A DNA stretch of 64,000 nt from a virus. Positions 12,001-18,000 of the stretch are shown here, piece by piece. The stretch is from IMG/VR virus record IMGVR_UViG_3300027319_000001. The stretch is one strand, 5' to 3'. The position numbers are program-made. How positions within the stretch are numbered: the stretch's first letter is position 1; each line of letters opens with the position of its first letter.

Positions 12001-15000
12001 GTTCCCAGGTGCCCACTTTGGGCAGTCGTGCACCTAGCCAGACGCAGGTCTGGCGCGATGCACTGCTCCATCATACGCTATTAGCGTCCGTGGTGTGCCT
12101 GTTTGCACGACGGGCATGCGCAACCCTGCTTGTATCCCCACGGAGTGCCGTGCTTGACGCCGGGTGGGGCGGCGTCTCTTAGAGCCTCATCCAGCTCTTG
12201 CTGGAAGCTGTCATCAATCCTGGCAATCCCGTACACGTCTTGGTACGTGGTGCCCAGCTCGTAGGCGGCCTCACTGACCCTGTAGCCCTCCCGGATCAGT
12301 TGCAGTAGCTTCTCGCGCCGCCACTCAGGCCATTCTGCCATCCGGATCTTCCGCCACCACTCCCTTGTGGCGGCGTTGTGGGCCTCCCTGGCTAGATGAT
12401 CCCTGGCTTTGTCTGTCCGCCACCGCGTCGTGTGCTTCACCTCGCTCCTGGGGCGTCTCATGCCTTCGAGCATAACCAATCCCCGTATGAGCGGGGAGAC
12501 AGATGTTCTTGTTGCATGCAACGTTGCTTCCGTGCTAGCTTGATCGCGCCGAGAATAACCCAGGGTGTTGGGATTCACCCGGAACCAATCCCCCCTGATT
12601 GGCTGGCCGAAAGGCGGCTTGTGCAGCCACAGGGACCCAGCCACGGCGGTCAAGGCTGGGTGCCGCCGAACCCGCCCACCGGTTGGCGTACCGGGTGTAG
12701 AGAGACCGGACAGGAAGACGCGCCAGCCACCACAGGAGTATCAGTCCGGCGAGTCGTTGCCCTGGTCGTGAGGCCAGGGTGGAACACGGCAGGCCCAGAC
12801 TCGGCACCCGAGAGGGGCGTCAGTGGACCTCGGCTCGCTGCGTCTTGCAGCGCCACTGACCGAGAGGCTGATACACATCCCGCCCTGGCCTAGGAGTAAT
12901 GCCCTAGGCGGCGCACACGGCGACCGAGGCGACCGACCGACGGCGTACCGGATGCCCGTGCGTCCCCAGCCCCCCGCTGTGAGGTAAGACGGTGGCACCC
13001 ATATTGGTGTCTCCTTTTTACCTCACAGCGGGGGGCGGGGCTCCCTCGGCTCCCTCCCTCCGGCCCCCGGATGCAGCAAGCCCGAAATCGAACACCAGTT
13101 CGCAAAACAGGTTTCTGGCACAACCTGACAGAACTGAAAAAGTAGGGCAGGCAATGTAAACCTCAGATACTCCTGAGGCGACGCTGACCAGGCGTAACGC
13201 AGAGAATCGGGGGACAGGAGAGGGGGATGGGGCGGAGCGGATCCCGGATTAGGCATAGCTAAGCTGCCTATGAGTTGGTACATTGCCCATGGACACACTC
13301 TGGTTATGGTGCGGAAAGTGTGTCGGGGACATCTGTCCGGGCTGGTCACCTGGACATATAGGTGTCCCCTAGCCTAGGGGACTCGATGCCAGGGCGTAGA
13401 GTCGACTAGGCAAACGAAGGACCCCCGAGCCCGACGCTCTCGGGGGTCCTTCCTTTTGTCAAGGGTTGCTAGCCGACCTGGCGCTGGTCACACCACCACC
13501 GGAGGTAGGGGACCTTGACGGCTAGCGGTGGGGTGCCAATCTCAGGGCACGGTACACCGTGCTCTTTCGCCCAGGCGCGGACGGCCCTCGGGTTGACGAA
13601 GACGTCCGGCTTGGAGGCCTTGCGCGCCCGGGGTGCGGGGCGGCCGATCGACAGGTACGGCTGAACCGTCTTGTTCAGCTCGTCCGCGTGTGCCTGGCAG
13701 AGGTCGATCGACCGCCGCGTCTTCCCCAGGGCGAGGACGTGCTCTGCAGCGTCCCGACCGCAGTCGGAGACATCGCACGTCCTGTAGATACGGATGATCT
13801 GTGCCATCGTCTCTCCGGTCATGGTGCGGTTGCGCATAGCCTAATTGGGGTGTCCGGAACGTGCCACTTATGTACCAACTGCGTTCCAAATTCACAGGGA
13901 GGCGTGGTCATGATCGACGCGACGCGAGCGGGCGCGAGTCGAGCGGCCGCGTACCGCGGCTCAGAGACACGAGAAGACCCGGCTCGCAAGGCGAACGAGC
14001 CGGGTCTATGCCTCTCCCTCTCAACCTATGGTCGCCCAGATGCGGCGAATGCCGCCATAGTCCCCCCAGCCCCACTGTCCGGAGGTGAGCTGATCTACCA
14101 TGTAAAGACCGCGACCGTTAAGAGATGAATCGTCCGGTTTGATGATTTCTGGTATGGTCTGGCCAGCAATCTCGTCTAGCTCCAGGCGTACGGAGCCGCC
14201 GGTAGTGATGAAGATGGAGAGGGAGAACCGGCTGACGAGATGCATGGCGTCCGGCGCGGGAGTGCCCTTGCCTGCGTACCGTACCGAGTTAGATGCCAGC
14301 TCGCTGGCCACCACCATGGCAGATTCAAGAGTGTCGGGGTCGCATGTCCCGTGCAGTGCGACGCGTGTAGCACTCCGGGCAACCCCTACAGACTGGGGGA
14401 GTGAGGGCAGCAGTATGCTGCACAGGAGGGAACAGACCATATCACGTGTCCTTCACTGCTCGGCATGGCCATTATCCGCAGTTGTGCCCGCCATCGCAAT
14501 GGTCTATGCAACATTGCTGAGGCGTAATTGTCGGGGGAGTTTTGAATAATGCGGCAGATGCGCACTTTGCCGCATAAGGGAGTGCGGTAGATGTCTGAGG
14601 ATCGAGCGCCCACGGTTCTGCAGCGCCGGTTGGGCGTTGAGCTGCGGAAACTTCGGGAACGGGCAGGACTGTCAGTCCACGATGCGGCCCGGCCGCACGG
14701 CTGGTCCGGGTCGAAAATCTCTCGTATAGAGACATGCCGGACATTGCCCACTCCCAAGGATGTGGCCAAGCTCTGTGCTTTTTATAAAGCAGATAAGGAA
14801 ACGACCGAATTCCTTATTCGGCTTGCCCGAAATTCGGGTGATGATGGTTGGTGGGATCACTACGGGATCACGGGGGAGTACGCTTCATACATCGCCATGG
14901 AGTCGGCCGCCAGTGAGATTGAGACTTACTCACAGGTGCTGATTCCGGGACTTCTCCAGACAAAGCAGTACGCAGATACGGTGCTTAGGGCACGCCTGGA

Positions 15001-18000
15001 AGATCAGGTACCCGAGGATGAAATCGCCCGTCAGGTGGCAATCCGGATGCGTCGGCAGGAAGTTCTCTATCGGGAACATCCTGTACAGCTAAGGGTGATC
15101 TTGGAGGAGTACGCGGTCCGGCACATGGTCGGCGGCCCGGATGTCATGGGTGAGCAGCTCGAATACCTTATTCAGCTCAACCGGCTGCCCAACGTATCTA
15201 TACAGCTGCTACCCTCTGATGTCGGCGCGCACCCGGCAATGAACGGTCCATTCACGGTCATGAGGTTCCCGGAGCATCCCACCTTGGCGGCTGCTGCCGT
15301 GGAGCTGGTCGGGTGTACCATATGGATTGAGGAGTCCGTTCACGTCCACCGTCTTGGGAAGATCTTCAGGTACCTGGGCGGTCGGGCGCGGGACCCTCAA
15401 ACCACCACCAAGATGCTGCGCACCATCGTCCAAAACATGTGAAAGGGGGCGCAATGGACATCAAGGACATCACCTGGTACACGGCGTGTCCGGACCAGGA
15501 GTGCGTGCAGGTCGGAGCGGCGGATGGCGACACCATCCTCATTAGGGACTCCAAGACGGGTACCGCCCTGCGGTTCTCCAAGCGAGAGATCCAGAACTTC
15601 TTCGACGGAGTTCGGGAGGGGACCTTCGACCACCTGCTCTGATCTGCTAGGGTAGATCGCGACCGGTCCCCCGGTATCCCGATGTGCTCCTGCTGTCTTG
15701 GTGGATTGCAGGAACCCACGCTGGTTCTGGCCGGGGGACCGGTCCTTTTTTTGTGTTCGGCTTGACGCGTATCAACTAGTGCCCATTAGCGTCCCCTTCA
15801 TGGACCAGACGATCCTCGGGCCTCTCATTGAAGAAGCCGACCTTCCTCAGGTCTGTATCGGCGGCCCAATGCATGGAGCTGTGCTTCCGTCGGGTGAGCG
15901 AAACGAGCCGGAGTGGGTTAAGTCTTTCCTCGACAACGCGGATTCGGCCGGAGACCTGGTTTACAAGAATTACAGGTACCGTCGCGCGAACTTCAACATA
16001 CTTGGCCAGCGCGTTGCCTTTTGGATTCTGGACGAGCTGTGGGCTGAACGGAATCGTGCAGTCAGATACTACATATTCTCCGCTCTTTTTCGTGAGCGGC
16101 AGAAGAACGACAACCTTTCACTGAATTTTGCGGAAACGGAAAACTGAGTTGTATTACGAAGCTGTCGCCAAATTCCACAAGTTCGCTCAGGAGCCGTTTT
16201 TCCACGAGCTGACCGAGGAAGAGCGTATCGCGTTCATCGAGCGCCGCTCAAAAATGCTAGCGGAAGAAGTGGATGAGCTTTCTGCCGAAATGAGGAAGTT
16301 TGCTGATGGGCAGGCAGACGCTGTCGGCATCGCCATGGAAGCTGCAGACGTGCTCTACATCATTTTCGGAACGGTGCAGCTGATGGGCATCCCTATTGAA
16401 GCTGTCTTCCATCACATTCATGAGCGAAATCTGCAGAAGGTGGACGGATCCTTTGGTGAGATAGTCCGCCGTCCCGATGGGAAGATTCTTAAGCCGAAGG
16501 GATGGACGCCGATCACTCGGGACGAGATGCGAAATATCCTCTGGGATCTGTACCGCTGGAAGTCCCCTAGTATTTCCGAGTAACAACACCAAATAACAAC
16601 TGAATACGGAAAACTAGTACCGTCGTTTCAGGTGTAGTCGATAGAAACGGCGGTACTGTGTTTGAGAGCATTGCCGCAACGCCTGCAGGCGGGGACATTG
16701 TGTCATGGTCCCCGGCGCTTATCGGGCCGCTAGCGGCTTTTGTTTTGATTCTATTCGTCACTGAAACTGTTGTATCCGGCAAAACGTACCGCCGCACATT
16801 AGAAGAGAATAAGAGGCTGAGCGAGGCGCACACTAAGGCGCTGACTGTGGCTCAGTCCATGGTTGAATCCGTCCGTGCGCAGAACGTTGCCATAGAGGAA
16901 GTCGTATCTGCGCTAAATACGGTTGCTCGTACGTTGGCGGCAGCGAGAAACCCGGAAGCGGCGAACAATGTGCAGCACCAGCAGGATCGAAGATGATGGC
17001 ACCGCCGACGTTTTCGACTATCTGATGATTGCTATTCGGGGTGCGGCAGAACATGCGAGGGTCATTGCGGCCCAGGCAGCTACAGTACGAAAGGCGATTG
17101 AATGCACGTCGAAACCTGCTATTTCATCGACGGCCGCCATTTCGGCCCCGAGGGATGTTGCCACACGCTCGTAGAAGACGAGCTTGGACCGGTGAGGCCG
17201 CCGGGTTGGACAGTCCAATCGGAGAGCAGAAATAAAGCATACTTGAATAAAGAATCTTTGCAGGAAGGTTAAAGTTATATGCGCAACCCGGCAGACACTT
17301 CTGTTAAGAACTACTTCGGCGGCGACGCTTTTGAGCCGATGAACGCTGAGCGCTGGACTGCTCAGTCCCCCCGTCACTGCCCGCCGTATCTGAATTCCGC
17401 ACAGGTTTACGGTCACCCTGAGTACCCGGACCTGATTGATTTTAGCCGAATCGACCACTGGCGGTACGATGATGACGATCCGCCGGTTGTCACCGTCAAC
17501 TTCTCTGGCAGCCAGAATGAGGATGGTGCCTACACGGACTCTGTGTCCATCACCATCACTGCTCAGGACCCTGATGGCGTGAAGGCGGTTCTCTACAAGC
17601 TGGACGATGGTGAGTGGACTGAGTACTCGTCAGCGATCAACGTCAACACCGTTGGTGTCCACGACCTTTTCGTGGATGCCGAGGACAATAAGGGTAACAA
17701 GATCAAGATCCGCCAGTACCGCTTTAAGGTGGTCGCTTCGTAAGACCAATGGCTGATGATATTCGAAGCCCTGTCGACACGTCCAAGAAAAACTACCGGT
17801 CTGCCGACTGGTATGAGCCGGGCGTGCAGATGGGGTGGACTGCGCAGAGTAGGGTTCATTACCCAGAGTTGGTGACCTCTGAAAAGATGTACGGTCACCC
17901 TCTCTGGGATGAGGAAACTCAACAGGTTATTCCTGTTGAGCCATATACCGCGCTCTACTACGACGACCCGAATGATATCCAGCCTCGCTAGGTCGCAGCG

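What the first reader, a model, noticed from the sequence alone, without database searches (positions are those of the whole stretch)
14021..15642. Complete WhiJ-type three-gene module carried by a phage
A divergent HATPase-fold anti-sigma-like gene (14021..14440, -) faces two translationally coupled genes:
- an XRE-HTH/DUF5753-like regulator (14591..15442);
- a DUF397-like small protein (15454..15642).

This trio is the signature of the multi-copy whiJ/abaA-like loci of filamentous actinomycetes, whose mechanism is still poorly understood. Here it sits in a phage accessory region next to Lsr2 and an integrase, at a GC content well below that of Streptomyces chromosomes. It may act as the immunity or decision switch, as a host-development hijacker, or as a toxin-antitoxin-like or defence module.
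Basis: partly seen in the sequence, partly recalled or inferred. Interest (0 to 1): 0.65.

Follow-up and report, generated by a model that had tools for sequence, protein, structure and literature searches.

The report
WhiJ-type regulatory trio on actinophage
A temperate relative of large Streptomyces phages carries an intact copy of the three-gene WhiJ/AbaA/BldB regulatory cassette that filamentous actinomycetes use to brake development; this is real, but similar cassettes are already present, undiscussed, in several sequenced Streptomyces phages.

Summary
Window 14021-15642 encodes:
- a divergent anti-sigma-like GHKL protein (Pfam just below cutoff, fold confirmed);
- an XRE-HTH/DUF5753 regulator;
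- a coupled DUF397 protein.

The DNA is phage, not host flank:
- Genes between the module and the integrase are homologues of backbone genes of lytic Streptomyces phage GiJojo.
- A diverged relative keeps the block from Lsr2-like gene through trio and MazG to integrase in synteny.
- GC stays at 55-64% to the contig end.

The cassette is maintained. All three ORFs are intact in a 96% variant, with dN/dS of 0.25 and 0.46 for the two larger genes. It has its own control region and terminator.

It is not unprecedented:
- Phages Picard, Mojorita and Darolandstone carry the same trio beside their integrases.
- 19 of 80 IMG/VR loci examined have it.
- PHROGs holds families for all three proteins.

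In phage Samy the homologous pair is highly expressed in lysogens and is separate from the predicted immunity repressor.

Best reading: a lysogeny-expressed accessory cassette acting on host sigma-factor or developmental control. An immunity-switch role is not excluded. The toxin-antitoxin reading is disfavoured.

Verdict: a new member of a known kind, of moderate interest.

The parts
14021..14440 (-). AbaA-like gene (139 aa): a stand-alone GHKL/HATPase_c_2 protein with an anti-sigma-factor fold. It is the presumed output or effector of the module.
   Evidence: - Pfam HATPase_c_2: 26.5 bits against a 27.4 cutoff.
- phrog_12354: E 7e-12.
- 532 distant homologues; all 60 aligned ones hit HATPase_c_2.
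- AlphaFold model pLDDT 92.
- Best structural matches are SpoIIAB, RsbW and UsfX.
- N-box E47/N51 and G109-R-G-L are intact. The G1-box Asp (57 of 60 sequences) is Glu here.
- dN/dS 0.25 against the 96% variant.
14441..14590 (.). Divergent 150-bp control region. It contains three features:
- a conserved block at about 14497-14524 with the core ATGCAAC.TTGC;
- a perfect inverted repeat, ATGCGGCA-N11-TGCCGCAT, at 14549-14575, just upstream of the regulator's Shine-Dalgarno sequence (AAGGGAG, 14577-14583);
- a sigma-70-like promoter on the minus strand (TTGCGA-17-GATAAT, 14499-14471).
   Evidence: - Sequence and repeats.
- Promoter scan: (one hit, which is at chance level for the region).
- The inverted repeat is fully conserved in the 96% variant while nearby bases vary.
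- The ATGCAAC.TTGC core is conserved in relative L021, where it is a perfect 18-bp palindrome.
- The inverted repeat is unique in the 64-kb window.
14591..15442 (+). WhiJ-like regulator (283 aa): an N-terminal XRE helix-turn-helix plus a C-terminal DUF5753 domain.
   Evidence: - HTH_31 E 9e-18; DUF5753 E 5e-52.
- Sco1979 family, 219 bits.
- phrog_9908 E 1e-73.
- Closest cellular homologues are no more than 44% identical.
- AlphaFold model pLDDT 90. The HTH domain matches XRE repressors.
- dN/dS 0.46.
15439..15642 (+). BldB-like DUF397 small protein: 62 aa from ATG 15454, or 67 aa from GTG 15439, which overlaps the regulator's stop codon by 4 nt.
   Evidence: - DUF397, 33.2 bits against a cutoff of 24.
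- phrog_10815.
- The RDSK motif is present. The family's CxE motif reads CVQ here and in the L021 homologue (motif definition from PMC7159879).
- Intact in the variant, but with 8 nonsynonymous against 2 synonymous changes.
15720..15754 (+). Terminator-like G+C hairpin followed by T7. It closes the regulator-DUF397 transcription unit ahead of the next phage gene (orf115, 15800-16147).
   Evidence: - Terminator scan.
- Sequence.
- The folding z-score of the wider 66-nt stretch is not significant.
13469..13837 (-). Context: a probable Lsr2-like gene downstream of the AbaA-like gene on the same strand, and possibly co-transcribed with it.
   Evidence: - Sub-threshold Pfam hits to both Lsr2 domains.
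- phrog_1223 E 2e-7.
- 51% identical homologue at the same position in L021.
- Disrupted by two deletions in the 96% variants L015-L017.
19765..21027 (-). Context: a tyrosine integrase 4.1 kb downstream of the module, with a hairpin terminator and about 650 bp of non-coding DNA (a candidate attP) at its 3' side.
   Evidence: - phrog_1 E 3e-49.
- Pfam Phage_integrase.
- 52% identical integrase at the same position in relative L101.
- Sequence.

Best explanation
What it is (shown). This is a genuine, intact WhiJ/AbaA/BldB-type cassette. It resides in the accessory arm of a temperate, integrase-bearing relative of the BRock/GiJojo group of large Streptomyces phages. It has been inherited with that phage lineage for a long time.

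How it most likely works (inferred from the chromosomal systems and from phage Samy). It is an autonomous, moron-like unit expressed from the prophage.
1. The WhiJ-like regulator binds the conserved palindromic elements in the 150-bp divergent control region. It thereby controls its own bicistron and the divergent AbaA-like gene, and possibly the Lsr2-like gene behind it.
2. The co-translated DUF397 protein binds the regulator, and possibly host BldB-type paralogues, and sets the regulator's activity.
3. The AbaA-like protein is the output. It has a SpoIIAB/RsbW-type fold and would sequester or phosphorylate a host partner, such as a sigma factor or a regulator of one.
4. The net effect would be to change the lysogen's developmental or stress transcription. 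The most plausible effect is a brake on aerial growth and sporulation.
For: Identity:
- Domain and fold assignments.

Phage residence and long-term inheritance:
- Portal is 59-60% identical to BRock-like Streptomyces phages.
- GiJojo gp56, gp58 and gp59 homologues lie between the module and the integrase.
- Relative L021/L101 keeps the order Lsr2-like, AbaA-like (49%), WhiJ-like (52%), DUF397 (40%), orf115, MazG, backbone genes (73-79%), integrase (52%).
- The AbaA-like and WhiJ-like genes share the backbone's GC3 (0.66-0.68 against 0.62-0.72). The DUF397 gene is higher at 0.86.

Maintenance:
- ORFs are intact and dN/dS is 0.25 and 0.46 in a 96% variant. The inverted repeat is conserved.

Autonomy:
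- The module has its own divergent control region, Shine-Dalgarno sequences and a terminator.

Lysogenic expression, by homology:
- Samy SAMYPH_90/91 are among the most-expressed prophage genes in 10 of 10 non-inducing conditions. They are distinct from the predicted immunity repressor SAMYPH_32 (PMC11302927, S3 Table).

Wiring, by homology:
- WhiJ9 binds repeats in the divergent intergenic region and activates the divergent gene.
- Loss of BldB de-represses the abaA paralogues.
- BldB paralogues hetero-oligomerise.
- 129 natural WhiJ-BldB fusions exist (PMC10294661).
- The SCO4542 (DUF397) deletion is bald and is suppressed by deleting whiJ, giving the 'developmental brake' model (PMC4255298).

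Rationale:
- The onset of aerial hyphae and spore formation gives transient phage resistance (PMC10117723).

Recurrence near integrases in other Streptomyces phages and a satellite:
-.
Against: - No experiment exists on any phage-borne copy, so every mechanistic step is by analogy.
- The host is unknown. No related prophage was found in reference genomes, and the nearest cellular regulators are only 44% identical or less.
- The role of chromosomal AbaA-like proteins is itself unknown, and no STAS-type partner or sigma factor is encoded nearby.
- The G1-box Asp is Glu, so nucleotide binding is uncertain.
- The DUF397 gene shows no sign of purifying selection between the close variants (dN/dS about 1.2, from 10 changes).
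- No other repressor is recognisable in this phage, so the regulator could instead be the immunity repressor.
- The promoter call is at chance level.
Confidence: 0.5

Rival explanations
1. The module is the phage's immunity or lysis-lysogeny switch. The WhiJ-like XRE protein would be the prophage repressor, the DUF397 protein its modulator or anti-repressor, and the divergent AbaA-like gene the first gene under its control.
For: - It is the only recognisable XRE-type regulator in the accessory arm of an integrase-bearing phage. No CI-like, Cro-like or excisionase gene was detected among the other small genes.
- The HTH region gives a weak hit to phrog_3, 'transcriptional repressor'.
- The divergent arrangement with palindromic elements resembles repressor/operator regions.
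- The trio and the integrase are both present in this temperate lineage. The lytic relative GiJojo has no trio homologue in the parts compared and no annotated integrase there; its 31-66 kb segment was not examined.
- The Samy pair is expressed constitutively in lysogens.
Against: - In Samy and Darolandstone a separate repressor is annotated or predicted alongside the pair or trio.
- Neither candidate operator recurs elsewhere in the 64-kb window above chance. Immunity repressors usually have several operators at early promoters.
- Hundreds of chromosomal paralogues of this architecture have no link to phage immunity.
- Most of the phage's small genes are ORFans, so failing to see another repressor is weak evidence.
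Confidence: 0.2
2. The module is a prophage-encoded defence, superinfection-exclusion or toxin-antitoxin-like system. DUF397 (or the AbaA-like protein) would be the toxic or abortive effector, and the XRE protein its antidote and sensor.
For: - XRE/DUF397 pairs were predicted by comparative genomics to be mobile type II TA systems. DUF397 genes also associate with conflict systems (PMC2701414; PMC7159879).
- The position near the prophage end, the autonomous transcription unit and the faster divergence than the backbone (40-52% against 73-79%) are typical of defence morons.
Against: - Overexpression of 14 S. coelicolor DUF397 proteins, and earlier of Scr2, showed no toxicity. The authors conclude that none behaves as a type II TA system (PMC10364602).
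- No PADLOC defence model matches any of the three proteins beyond a weak generic HTH hit.
- BldB-type proteins act through regulator networks, not as toxins.
Confidence: 0.12
3. The module is an inert passenger: a chromosomal whiJ cluster picked up by chance and now decaying.
For: - The neighbouring Lsr2-like gene is being lost in close variants.
- The DUF397 gene has dN/dS of about 1.2.
- The G1-box Asp of the AbaA-like protein is replaced by Glu.
Against: - All three ORFs are intact in the window, in the 96% variants and in a relative whose module proteins are only 40-52% identical.
- dN/dS is 0.25 and 0.46 for the two larger genes.
- Non-coding control elements are conserved.
- Overall GC of all three genes, and GC3 of the two larger ones, match the phage rather than a high-GC chromosome.
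- No cellular homologue exceeds 44% identity.
- Independent phage lineages carry the same trio.
Confidence: 0.05
4. The region is host chromosome flanking a prophage, so the module is an ordinary chromosomal whiJ cluster.
For: - The integrase lies between the module and the structural genes, with its 3' end facing the module side.
- A type I R-M specificity gene sits at the contig's far-left end.
- Many IMG/VR hits lie at contig ends, where host flank can contaminate prophage predictions.
Against: - Three genes between the module and the integrase are homologues of GiJojo backbone genes, in the same order.
- Almost no gene in the left 28 kb has a Pfam hit.
- GC is 55-64% throughout with no junction.
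- Synteny across the integrase is the same in independent assemblies (L004 and the 100%-identical L005) and in the diverged relative L101.
- The trio is present in the virion-derived genomes of Picard and Darolandstone.
Confidence: 0.02

Closest known systems
Chromosomal whiJ-type clusters of Streptomyces and other mycelial actinomycetes (whiJ/SCO4543 with SCO4542 and SCO4544; abaA locus; S. venezuelae whiJ9-bldB9-iosA and the abaA paralogues)
   Same: - Same three protein families.
- Same architecture: XRE-HTH/DUF5753 regulator, a DUF397 gene immediately downstream on the same strand, and an anti-sigma-like HATPase_c_2 gene divergent upstream.
- Repeat-bearing divergent intergenic region.

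   Different: - It is carried on a phage of about 58% GC rather than on a chromosome of about 70% GC or more.
- It is no more than 44% identical to any cellular regulator.
- The DUF397 protein has CVQ in place of the CxE motif and lacks the N-terminal KSSYSG-type motif.
- The AbaA-like protein has Glu in place of the G1-box Asp.
- None of the three genes has a TTA codon.
The trio in Streptomyces phages Picard and Mojorita (gp24-26) and Darolandstone (gp25-27)
   Same: - Identical gene order and orientation.
- Overlapping regulator and DUF397 genes.
- Located between the lysis/tail genes and the integrase of a temperate actinophage.
- Same PHROG families.

   Different: - Those are small siphoviruses of about 40 kb and about 70% GC with serine integrases. 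This is a contractile-tailed, BRock-like phage of about 90-97 kb and 58% GC with a tyrosine integrase.
- Proteins are only 27-36% identical.
- The intergenic regions share no obvious operator.
XRE/DUF397 pair SAMYPH_91/90 of Streptomyces ambofaciens prophage Samy
   Same: - Regulator (38% identical) with an overlapping DUF397 gene.
- Placed next to the att site and integrase at the end of the phage genome.

- This is the only phage copy with expression data. It is among the most-expressed prophage genes in all 10 non-inducing conditions.
   Different: - Samy lacks the divergent AbaA-like gene; two small unrelated genes are divergent instead.
- Samy has a separate predicted immunity repressor.
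SpoIIAB / RsbW / UsfX anti-sigma serine kinases (partner-switching modules)
   Same: - Fold of the 139-aa protein: TM about 0.7 and probability 1.0, with profile E 1e-11 to SpoIIAB.
- N-box Glu/Asn and the G2-type GRGL motif are conserved.
   Different: - No STAS antagonist or cognate sigma gene is seen in the annotated neighbourhoods.
- The G1 box is degenerate, with Glu for Asp.
- Sequence identity to solved anti-sigma factors is 11-18%.
- The partner is unknown.
Streptomyces phage satellite Mulchroom: Lsr2-like, HTH, 'histidine kinase' and tyrosine integrase cluster
   Same: - An AbaA-like HATPase protein (37% identical over 62% of the query).
- It is divergent from an HTH gene, beside an Lsr2-like gene and a tyrosine integrase.

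   Different: - The HTH protein is small (89 aa) and is not annotated as a DUF5753 regulator.
- No DUF397 gene is annotated.
- I did not test its domains.

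Membership tests
WhiJ/AbaA/BldB-type cluster | Regulator with an N-terminal XRE helix-turn-helix and a C-terminal DUF5753 domain | tested here: met
   - HTH_31: E 9e-18 (64.8 bits, cutoff 27).
- DUF5753: E 5e-52 (176.6 bits, cutoff 23.4), full length.
- NCBIfam Sco1979 family: 219 bits. This is below the 350-bit equivalog cutoff, so it is a family relative, not an orthologue.
WhiJ/AbaA/BldB-type cluster | Small DUF397 (BldB-like) protein encoded immediately downstream on the same strand | tested here: met
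   - DUF397: 33.2 bits against a cutoff of 24.
- Gap of 11 nt (ATG start) or overlap of 4 nt (GTG start).
WhiJ/AbaA/BldB-type cluster | DUF397 signature motifs: KSSYSG, CxE (CVEVA) and RDS (VAVRDSK) | tested here: inconclusive
   - RDSK is present (ILIRDSK).
- CxE reads CVQ.
- The KSSYSG position reads WYTACPD (motifs).
- The L021 homologue keeps CVQ but lacks RDSK.
WhiJ/AbaA/BldB-type cluster | Adjacent anti-sigma-like HATPase_c_2 (AbaA-like) gene | tested here: met
   - The Pfam score is 0.9 bit below the cutoff.
- All 60 homologues hit the family.
- The fold matches SpoIIAB and RsbW.
- The gene is divergent, 150 bp from the regulator.
WhiJ/AbaA/BldB-type cluster | The regulator binds repeats in the divergent intergenic region, and the DUF397 partner modulates it by protein-protein contact | not testable with these tools
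   Only indirect evidence: conserved palindromic elements in the intergenic region, and literature on WhiJ9/BldB and natural fusions.
WhiJ/AbaA/BldB-type cluster | Restricted to morphologically complex actinomycetes | tested here: inconclusive
   - The host was not identified.
- The closest isolated phage relatives infect Streptomyces.
- The nearest cellular regulators are from Streptosporangiaceae, Streptomyces, Kitasatospora and Kribbella.
- TTA is nearly absent phage-wide.
SpoIIAB/RsbW-type anti-sigma serine kinase | GHKL (Bergerat) ATP-binding fold as a stand-alone protein of about 140 aa | tested here: met
   Model pLDDT 92. Top PDB matches are 1th8, 1til, 1l0o, 6m37, 8jzt and 8ih8.
SpoIIAB/RsbW-type anti-sigma serine kinase | Complete nucleotide-binding motifs (N-box Asn, G1 DxGxG, G2 GxGxG) | tested here: inconclusive
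   - N-box E47/N51 is invariant and GRGL is invariant.
- The G1 box is degenerate across the AbaA-like family, and its Asp (57 of 60 sequences) is Glu in this protein.
SpoIIAB/RsbW-type anti-sigma serine kinase | Genetic linkage to a STAS anti-anti-sigma factor and/or a cognate sigma factor | tested here: not met
   No STAS or sigma-factor Pfam hit among the called genes in about 60 kb of annotated neighbourhoods or among the ORFs I scanned. The structural-gene block (about 25-52 kb) was checked only by PHROGs for its large ORFs.
Type II toxin-antitoxin system (XRE antitoxin / DUF397 toxin) | The small partner is toxic and is neutralised by the HTH partner | not testable with these tools
   Not testable here. 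The literature on 15 chromosomal pairs is negative. PADLOC gave no specific hit.
Phage immunity repressor (CI-like) | HTH repressor, divergently transcribed, in the integration/lysogeny region of a temperate phage | tested here: met
   XRE HTH, divergent arrangement, integrase 4.1 kb away.
Phage immunity repressor (CI-like) | Operator sites repeated at early promoters elsewhere in the genome | tested here: not met
   - The perfect inverted repeat is unique.
- The ATGCAAC.TTGC core has one extra near-copy at 12516-12529.
- Both counts are within chance expectation for the 64-kb window.
- The true operator is unknown, so this is weak evidence.

The most novel reading that the evidence does not exclude
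Phage-borne WhiJ/AbaA/BldB trios are lysogenic-conversion devices that plug into the host's own BldB-WhiJ network.

- The phage DUF397 protein would hetero-oligomerise with host BldB paralogues.
- The phage AbaA-like protein would act as an anti-sigma-type effector.
- The prophage or infecting phage would thereby hold the mycelium in the vegetative, phage-permissive state, or tie induction to development.

A corollary is that temperate phages are vehicles that seed the species-specific expansion of whiJ clusters in streptomycete chromosomes.
Probability: 0.25. Interest if true: 0.75.

Novelty: new member of a known kind. Interest (0 to 1): 0.42.

Why it matters
WhiJ/AbaA/BldB clusters are present in 10 to more than 20 copies per Streptomyces genome. 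They affect sporulation and antibiotic production, yet their biochemistry is unresolved, partly because the paralogues cross-talk.

A phage-borne copy is a minimal, self-contained and portable version. It could be moved into a naive host, and its phenotype could be scored in a lysogen.

This work shows three things:
- Such copies are intact, selected and long-resident in at least one phage lineage.
- Comparable copies recur in many (pro)phages: 281 IMG/VR contigs encode the regulator, and 19 of 80 examined loci carry the full trio.
- In Samy, the one case with data, the homologous pair is strongly expressed in lysogeny.

Because the onset of aerial growth makes Streptomyces transiently phage-resistant, a phage-encoded developmental brake would be a new kind of host manipulation. 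In the open-access literature I could search, I found no paper that discusses these phage copies.

Tried and rejected
- Megablast of 12-18 kb against GenBank phages found no match. Relatives were found only at the protein level.
- The word-indexed protein search for the AbaA-like protein found only a 93% variant, so the exhaustive HMMER search was needed.
- I tried to walk to both contig ends. The left end was reached. The right 17 kb could not be reached, because look-ups accept only window-encoded proteins and one guessed ORF was not on record. Circularity and terminal repeats of the genome therefore remain untested.
- The integrase has no close relative in IMG/VR by peptide patterns. The diverged homologue was found only by extending the L021 contig.
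- A portal-profile scan of 185,579 reference genomes found no related prophage, so neither the host nor an integrated form was identified.
- The sample accessions appear in no searchable paper.
- The Rfam scan of the window gave no hit, and tandem repeats in the gene-free stretch were trivial.
It was rerun without them.
- The DUF5753 fold search gave only weak PLD-like matches, which I do not use for the mechanism.
- My first count of trios in IMG/VR missed known positives because of a distance rule. It was corrected using domain coordinates.
- TTA codons, a feature of some chromosomal abaA-like genes, are absent from the module. They are also almost absent phage-wide, so this is uninformative.

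Full report
**1. The observation**

The three ORFs are present exactly where stated. They coincide with the genes called independently on the source contig.

- The 283-aa protein (14591-15442, +) is a full-length XRE-HTH/DUF5753 regulator. It scores HTH_31 E 9e-18 and DUF5753 E 5e-52. It scores 219 bits against NCBIfam's Sco1979 family, below the 350-bit equivalog cutoff. It matches phrog_9908 at E 1e-73.
- The small ORF (15454-15642, +) passes the DUF397 threshold, 33.2 bits against 24.
- The 139-aa divergent ORF (14021-14440, -) scores 26.5 bits on HATPase_c_2 against a cutoff of 27.4, so I tested it further.

Further tests on the 139-aa protein:
- An exhaustive HMMER search found 532 distant homologues.
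- All 60 that I aligned hit HATPase_c_2.
- The alignment keeps the N-box (E47, N51) and an invariant GRGL motif.
- An AlphaFold model is confident, with pLDDT 92 and pTM 0.88.
- Its best solved-structure matches are the anti-sigma kinases SpoIIAB, RsbW and mycobacterial UsfX, with TM about 0.7 and probability 1.0.
- A profile search of PDB sequences gives SpoIIAB at E 1e-11.

Four details need adjusting:
- The DUF397 gene either follows the regulator after 11 nt (ATG 15454, with a good AAGGGGG Shine-Dalgarno) or overlaps its stop codon by 4 nt (GTG 15439). The second geometry is the same as the ATGA overlap in relative L021. The regulator and DUF397 genes also overlap in Picard, Darolandstone and Samy.
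- The integrase is 4.1 kb away.
- The Lsr2 assignment of the neighbour rests on sub-threshold Pfam hits plus phrog_1223 at E 2e-7.
- GC is 57.9% for the window and 58-61% for the three genes.

**2. Phage or host?**

The window is part of a 96,963-bp metagenome contig, ENA ERZ795404 NODE_111. Essentially the same sequence was assembled from Logan SRR6048028; the piece I compared with the window, L005, is 100% identical. It also appears in ERZ795042 as an 88,947-bp contig at 120x coverage, and in ERZ27254877.

Gene content:
- To the right of the module lie a tyrosine integrase, an intein-containing large terminase, portal, tail sheath and tape measure.
- Beyond the window lie a replication initiator, a DnaC-like loader, DnaB, primase, an SNF2 helicase, PolA and a class II RNR.
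- The portal is 59-60% identical to those of the BRock/GiJojo group of lytic Streptomyces phages of 113-116 kb.

The decisive evidence is synteny. Three genes that lie between the module and the integrase are homologues of GiJojo gp56, gp58 and gp59. These are MazG (16149-16583), 18027-18641 (62% identity) and 18688-19119. They occur in the same order as in GiJojo, directly upstream of the terminase. So the DNA to the left of the integrase is phage backbone.

Supporting points:
- Almost no gene in the left 28 kb has a Pfam hit.
- GC stays at 55-64% to the contig's left end, with no junction.

A more diverged relative, IMG/VR UViG_3300025530_000273 (L021/L101), keeps the whole block in synteny:
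- Lsr2-like gene, 51% identity;
- AbaA-like, 49%;
- WhiJ-like, 52%;
- DUF397, 40%;
- orf115 and MazG;
- backbone genes, 73-79%;
- integrase, 52%.

The trio is thus an old resident of a temperate branch of this phage group, and it evolves faster than the backbone. The AbaA-like and WhiJ-like genes have the backbone's GC3. The DUF397 gene is higher at 0.86. No cellular regulator is more than 44% identical to the WhiJ-like protein. The best named ones are from Sphaerisporangium, Nonomuraea and Streptosporangium, followed by Streptomyces, Kitasatospora and Kribbella. The host-flank alternative is effectively refuted.

**3. Is it maintained?**

Variants about 96% identical at the DNA level (L015-L017) keep all three ORFs intact. 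Against L015, dN/dS values are as follows:
- AbaA-like gene, 0.25;
- regulator, 0.46;
- neighbouring MazG, 0.08;
- DUF397 gene, about 1.2, based on only 2 synonymous and 8 nonsynonymous changes.

Anatomy of the unit:
- The 150-bp divergent control region contains a perfect inverted repeat, ATGCGGCA-N11-TGCCGCAT (14549-14575), just upstream of the regulator's Shine-Dalgarno sequence. It is fully conserved in the variant while nearby bases change.
- A second block with the core ATGCAAC.TTGC (about 14497-14524) is conserved even in L021, where it forms a perfect 18-bp palindrome.
- A G+C hairpin followed by T7 at 15720-15754 closes the regulator-DUF397 unit before the next gene.

The module therefore looks like an autonomous, moron-like transcription unit.

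**4. How new is it?**

Not very new as an object.
- PHROGs already has families for all three proteins.
- tblastn finds the regulator in 15 GenBank phage records.
- Picard, Mojorita and Darolandstone have the AbaA-like gene as well.
- The annotated maps of Picard (gp24-26) and Darolandstone (gp25-27) show the identical trio architecture close to the integrase.
- Samy has the regulator-DUF397 pair beside its att site and integrase.
- A profile scan of IMG/VR found 281 viral contigs encoding the regulator.
- Of the best 80 loci, 77 have the regulator+DUF397 pair and 19 have the full trio in the same arrangement.
- The satellite Mulchroom has an AbaA-like gene divergent from an HTH gene, beside Lsr2-like and integrase genes.

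I found no paper that discusses phage-borne WhiJ-type modules. The search covers only open-access texts.

**5. Mechanism**

Chromosomal systems provide the model.
- WhiJ-type clusters are thought to act as developmental brakes. The SCO4542 (DUF397) deletion is bald and is suppressed by deleting whiJ (PMC4255298).
- In S. venezuelae, WhiJ9 binds repeats in the divergent intergenic region and is required to activate the divergent gene (PMC10294661).
- Loss of BldB de-represses the abaA paralogues.
- 129 natural WhiJ-BldB fusions exist.
- Overexpression of abaA6 together with iosA reproduces the bald phenotype.

Only one phage copy has expression data. In the S. ambofaciens lysogen, SAMYPH_90/91 belong to the most-expressed prophage genes in all 10 non-inducing conditions. 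They are distinct from the predicted immunity repressor SAMYPH_32 (PMC11302927, S3 Table).

Development matters to phages. The onset of aerial hyphae and spores generates transiently phage-resistant mycelium, and a mutant locked in vegetative growth does not show that regrowth (PMC10117723).

I therefore propose the following chain. It is inference, not demonstration.
1. The cassette is expressed from the prophage.
2. The regulator controls the divergent promoter region through the conserved palindromes.
3. The DUF397 partner tunes the regulator, and possibly host BldB-type proteins.
4. The AbaA-like protein is the output, acting on a host sigma factor or its regulators.

Weak points:
- The G1-box Asp is Glu, so nucleotide binding is uncertain.
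- No STAS or sigma gene is linked.
- The DUF397 protein has CVQ instead of CxE.

**6. Rivals**

Immunity switch. This rival keeps moderate weight (0.2) for this phage. I could not recognise any other repressor, Cro-like protein or excisionase. The trio and the integrase are both present in this lineage. GiJojo has no trio homologue in the parts I compared and no annotated integrase there; its 31-66 kb segment was not examined. Against it:
- Samy and Darolandstone have separate repressors.
- The candidate operators do not recur in the window above chance.

Toxin-antitoxin or defence (0.12). This reading is disfavoured by negative toxicity tests on 15 chromosomal pairs and by the absence of PADLOC matches. 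The fast divergence and the att-proximal position would still fit a defence moron.

Inert passenger (0.05) and host flank (0.02). Both are contradicted by the selection and synteny data above.

**7. Verdict**

The finding is real and correctly identified. It is a new member of a kind that already exists in sequenced phages but has not been discussed there. It is of moderate interest, mainly as a tractable, minimal entry point into an unresolved regulatory family and as a candidate device for manipulating host development.

Noticed in passing
window 23470-26142 (+): The 890-aa large terminase carries an intein. Pfam hits are Intein_splicing, LAGLIDADG_3 and Terminase_6C on the called gene. PHROG terminase matches are split across the protein.
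   Followed up: no
window 4336-4698 (+): A 120-aa gene hits Pfam Arr-ms (rifampin ADP-ribosyltransferase) in the phage's accessory arm. It is conserved in four assemblies.
   Followed up: no
window 13469-13837 (-): The Lsr2-like neighbour is intact here and has a 51% identical homologue in relative L021. In the 96% variants L015-L017 it is broken by two deletions, 13529-13634 and 13775-13889. The gene caller did not call it and instead called an overlapping + strand ORF, 13559-14128.
   Followed up: partly
window 12342-13468: A stretch of about 1.1 kb, at about 63% GC, has no called gene. It gave no Rfam hit and only trivial repeats. It holds a near-perfect copy (ATGCAACGTTGCTT, 12516-12529) of the palindrome core seen in the module's control region. 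It diverges faster than the flanking genes in the variants. Unexplained.
   Followed up: partly
L010 1-1475 (left end of contig NODE_111, about 6.7-8.1 kb left of window position 1): A type I restriction-modification specificity subunit (Methylase_S, 396 aa), preceded by a truncated gene, lies at the very end of the contig. GC there (55-60%) is like the phage's. Whether it is phage-borne or marks a junction is unresolved.
   Followed up: partly
window 19370-19428; L015 5906-6579: Variant L015 has an extra 674 bp carrying a DUF7694 gene. It is inserted in the non-coding region downstream of the integrase, which is the candidate attP region.
   Followed up: no
window 2244-3905 and 6933-7568: The 88,947-bp, 120x contig NODE_76 from a sister sample ends inside the gene at 2244-3905. 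Relative to the window it lacks 6933-7568. The left arm is a variable region, and the true genome length and ends of the phage are not established.
   Followed up: partly
whole window: TTA is almost absent: 1 of 234 Leu codons in four large structural genes, and none in the trio, despite only 58% GC. No tRNA genes were found, whereas the lytic relative GiJojo carries about 30.
   Followed up: no
window 14876-15442 (DUF5753 domain of the regulator): The confident model of the DUF5753 domain has no good structural relative. The best matches are weak ones to non-catalytic or nuclease PLD-like folds: BJ-TSA-9, the NgoAVII R protein, SauUSI and PLD3. E values are 3e-3 or weaker and TM is below 0.5.
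   Followed up: partly
window 15454-15642 and 13469-13837: The DUF397 and Lsr2-like genes have GC3 of about 0.86. The rest of the module and the phage backbone are at 0.62-0.72. This may hint at different histories or at expression constraints.
   Followed up: no
L102 (Streptomyces phage satellite Mulchroom, OQ784832.1 6.5-9.0 kb): A 14.8-kb phage satellite carries an Lsr2-like gene, a small HTH gene, a divergent AbaA-like 'histidine kinase' and a tyrosine integrase as one cluster. This echoes the neighbourhood seen in the window.
   Followed up: partly
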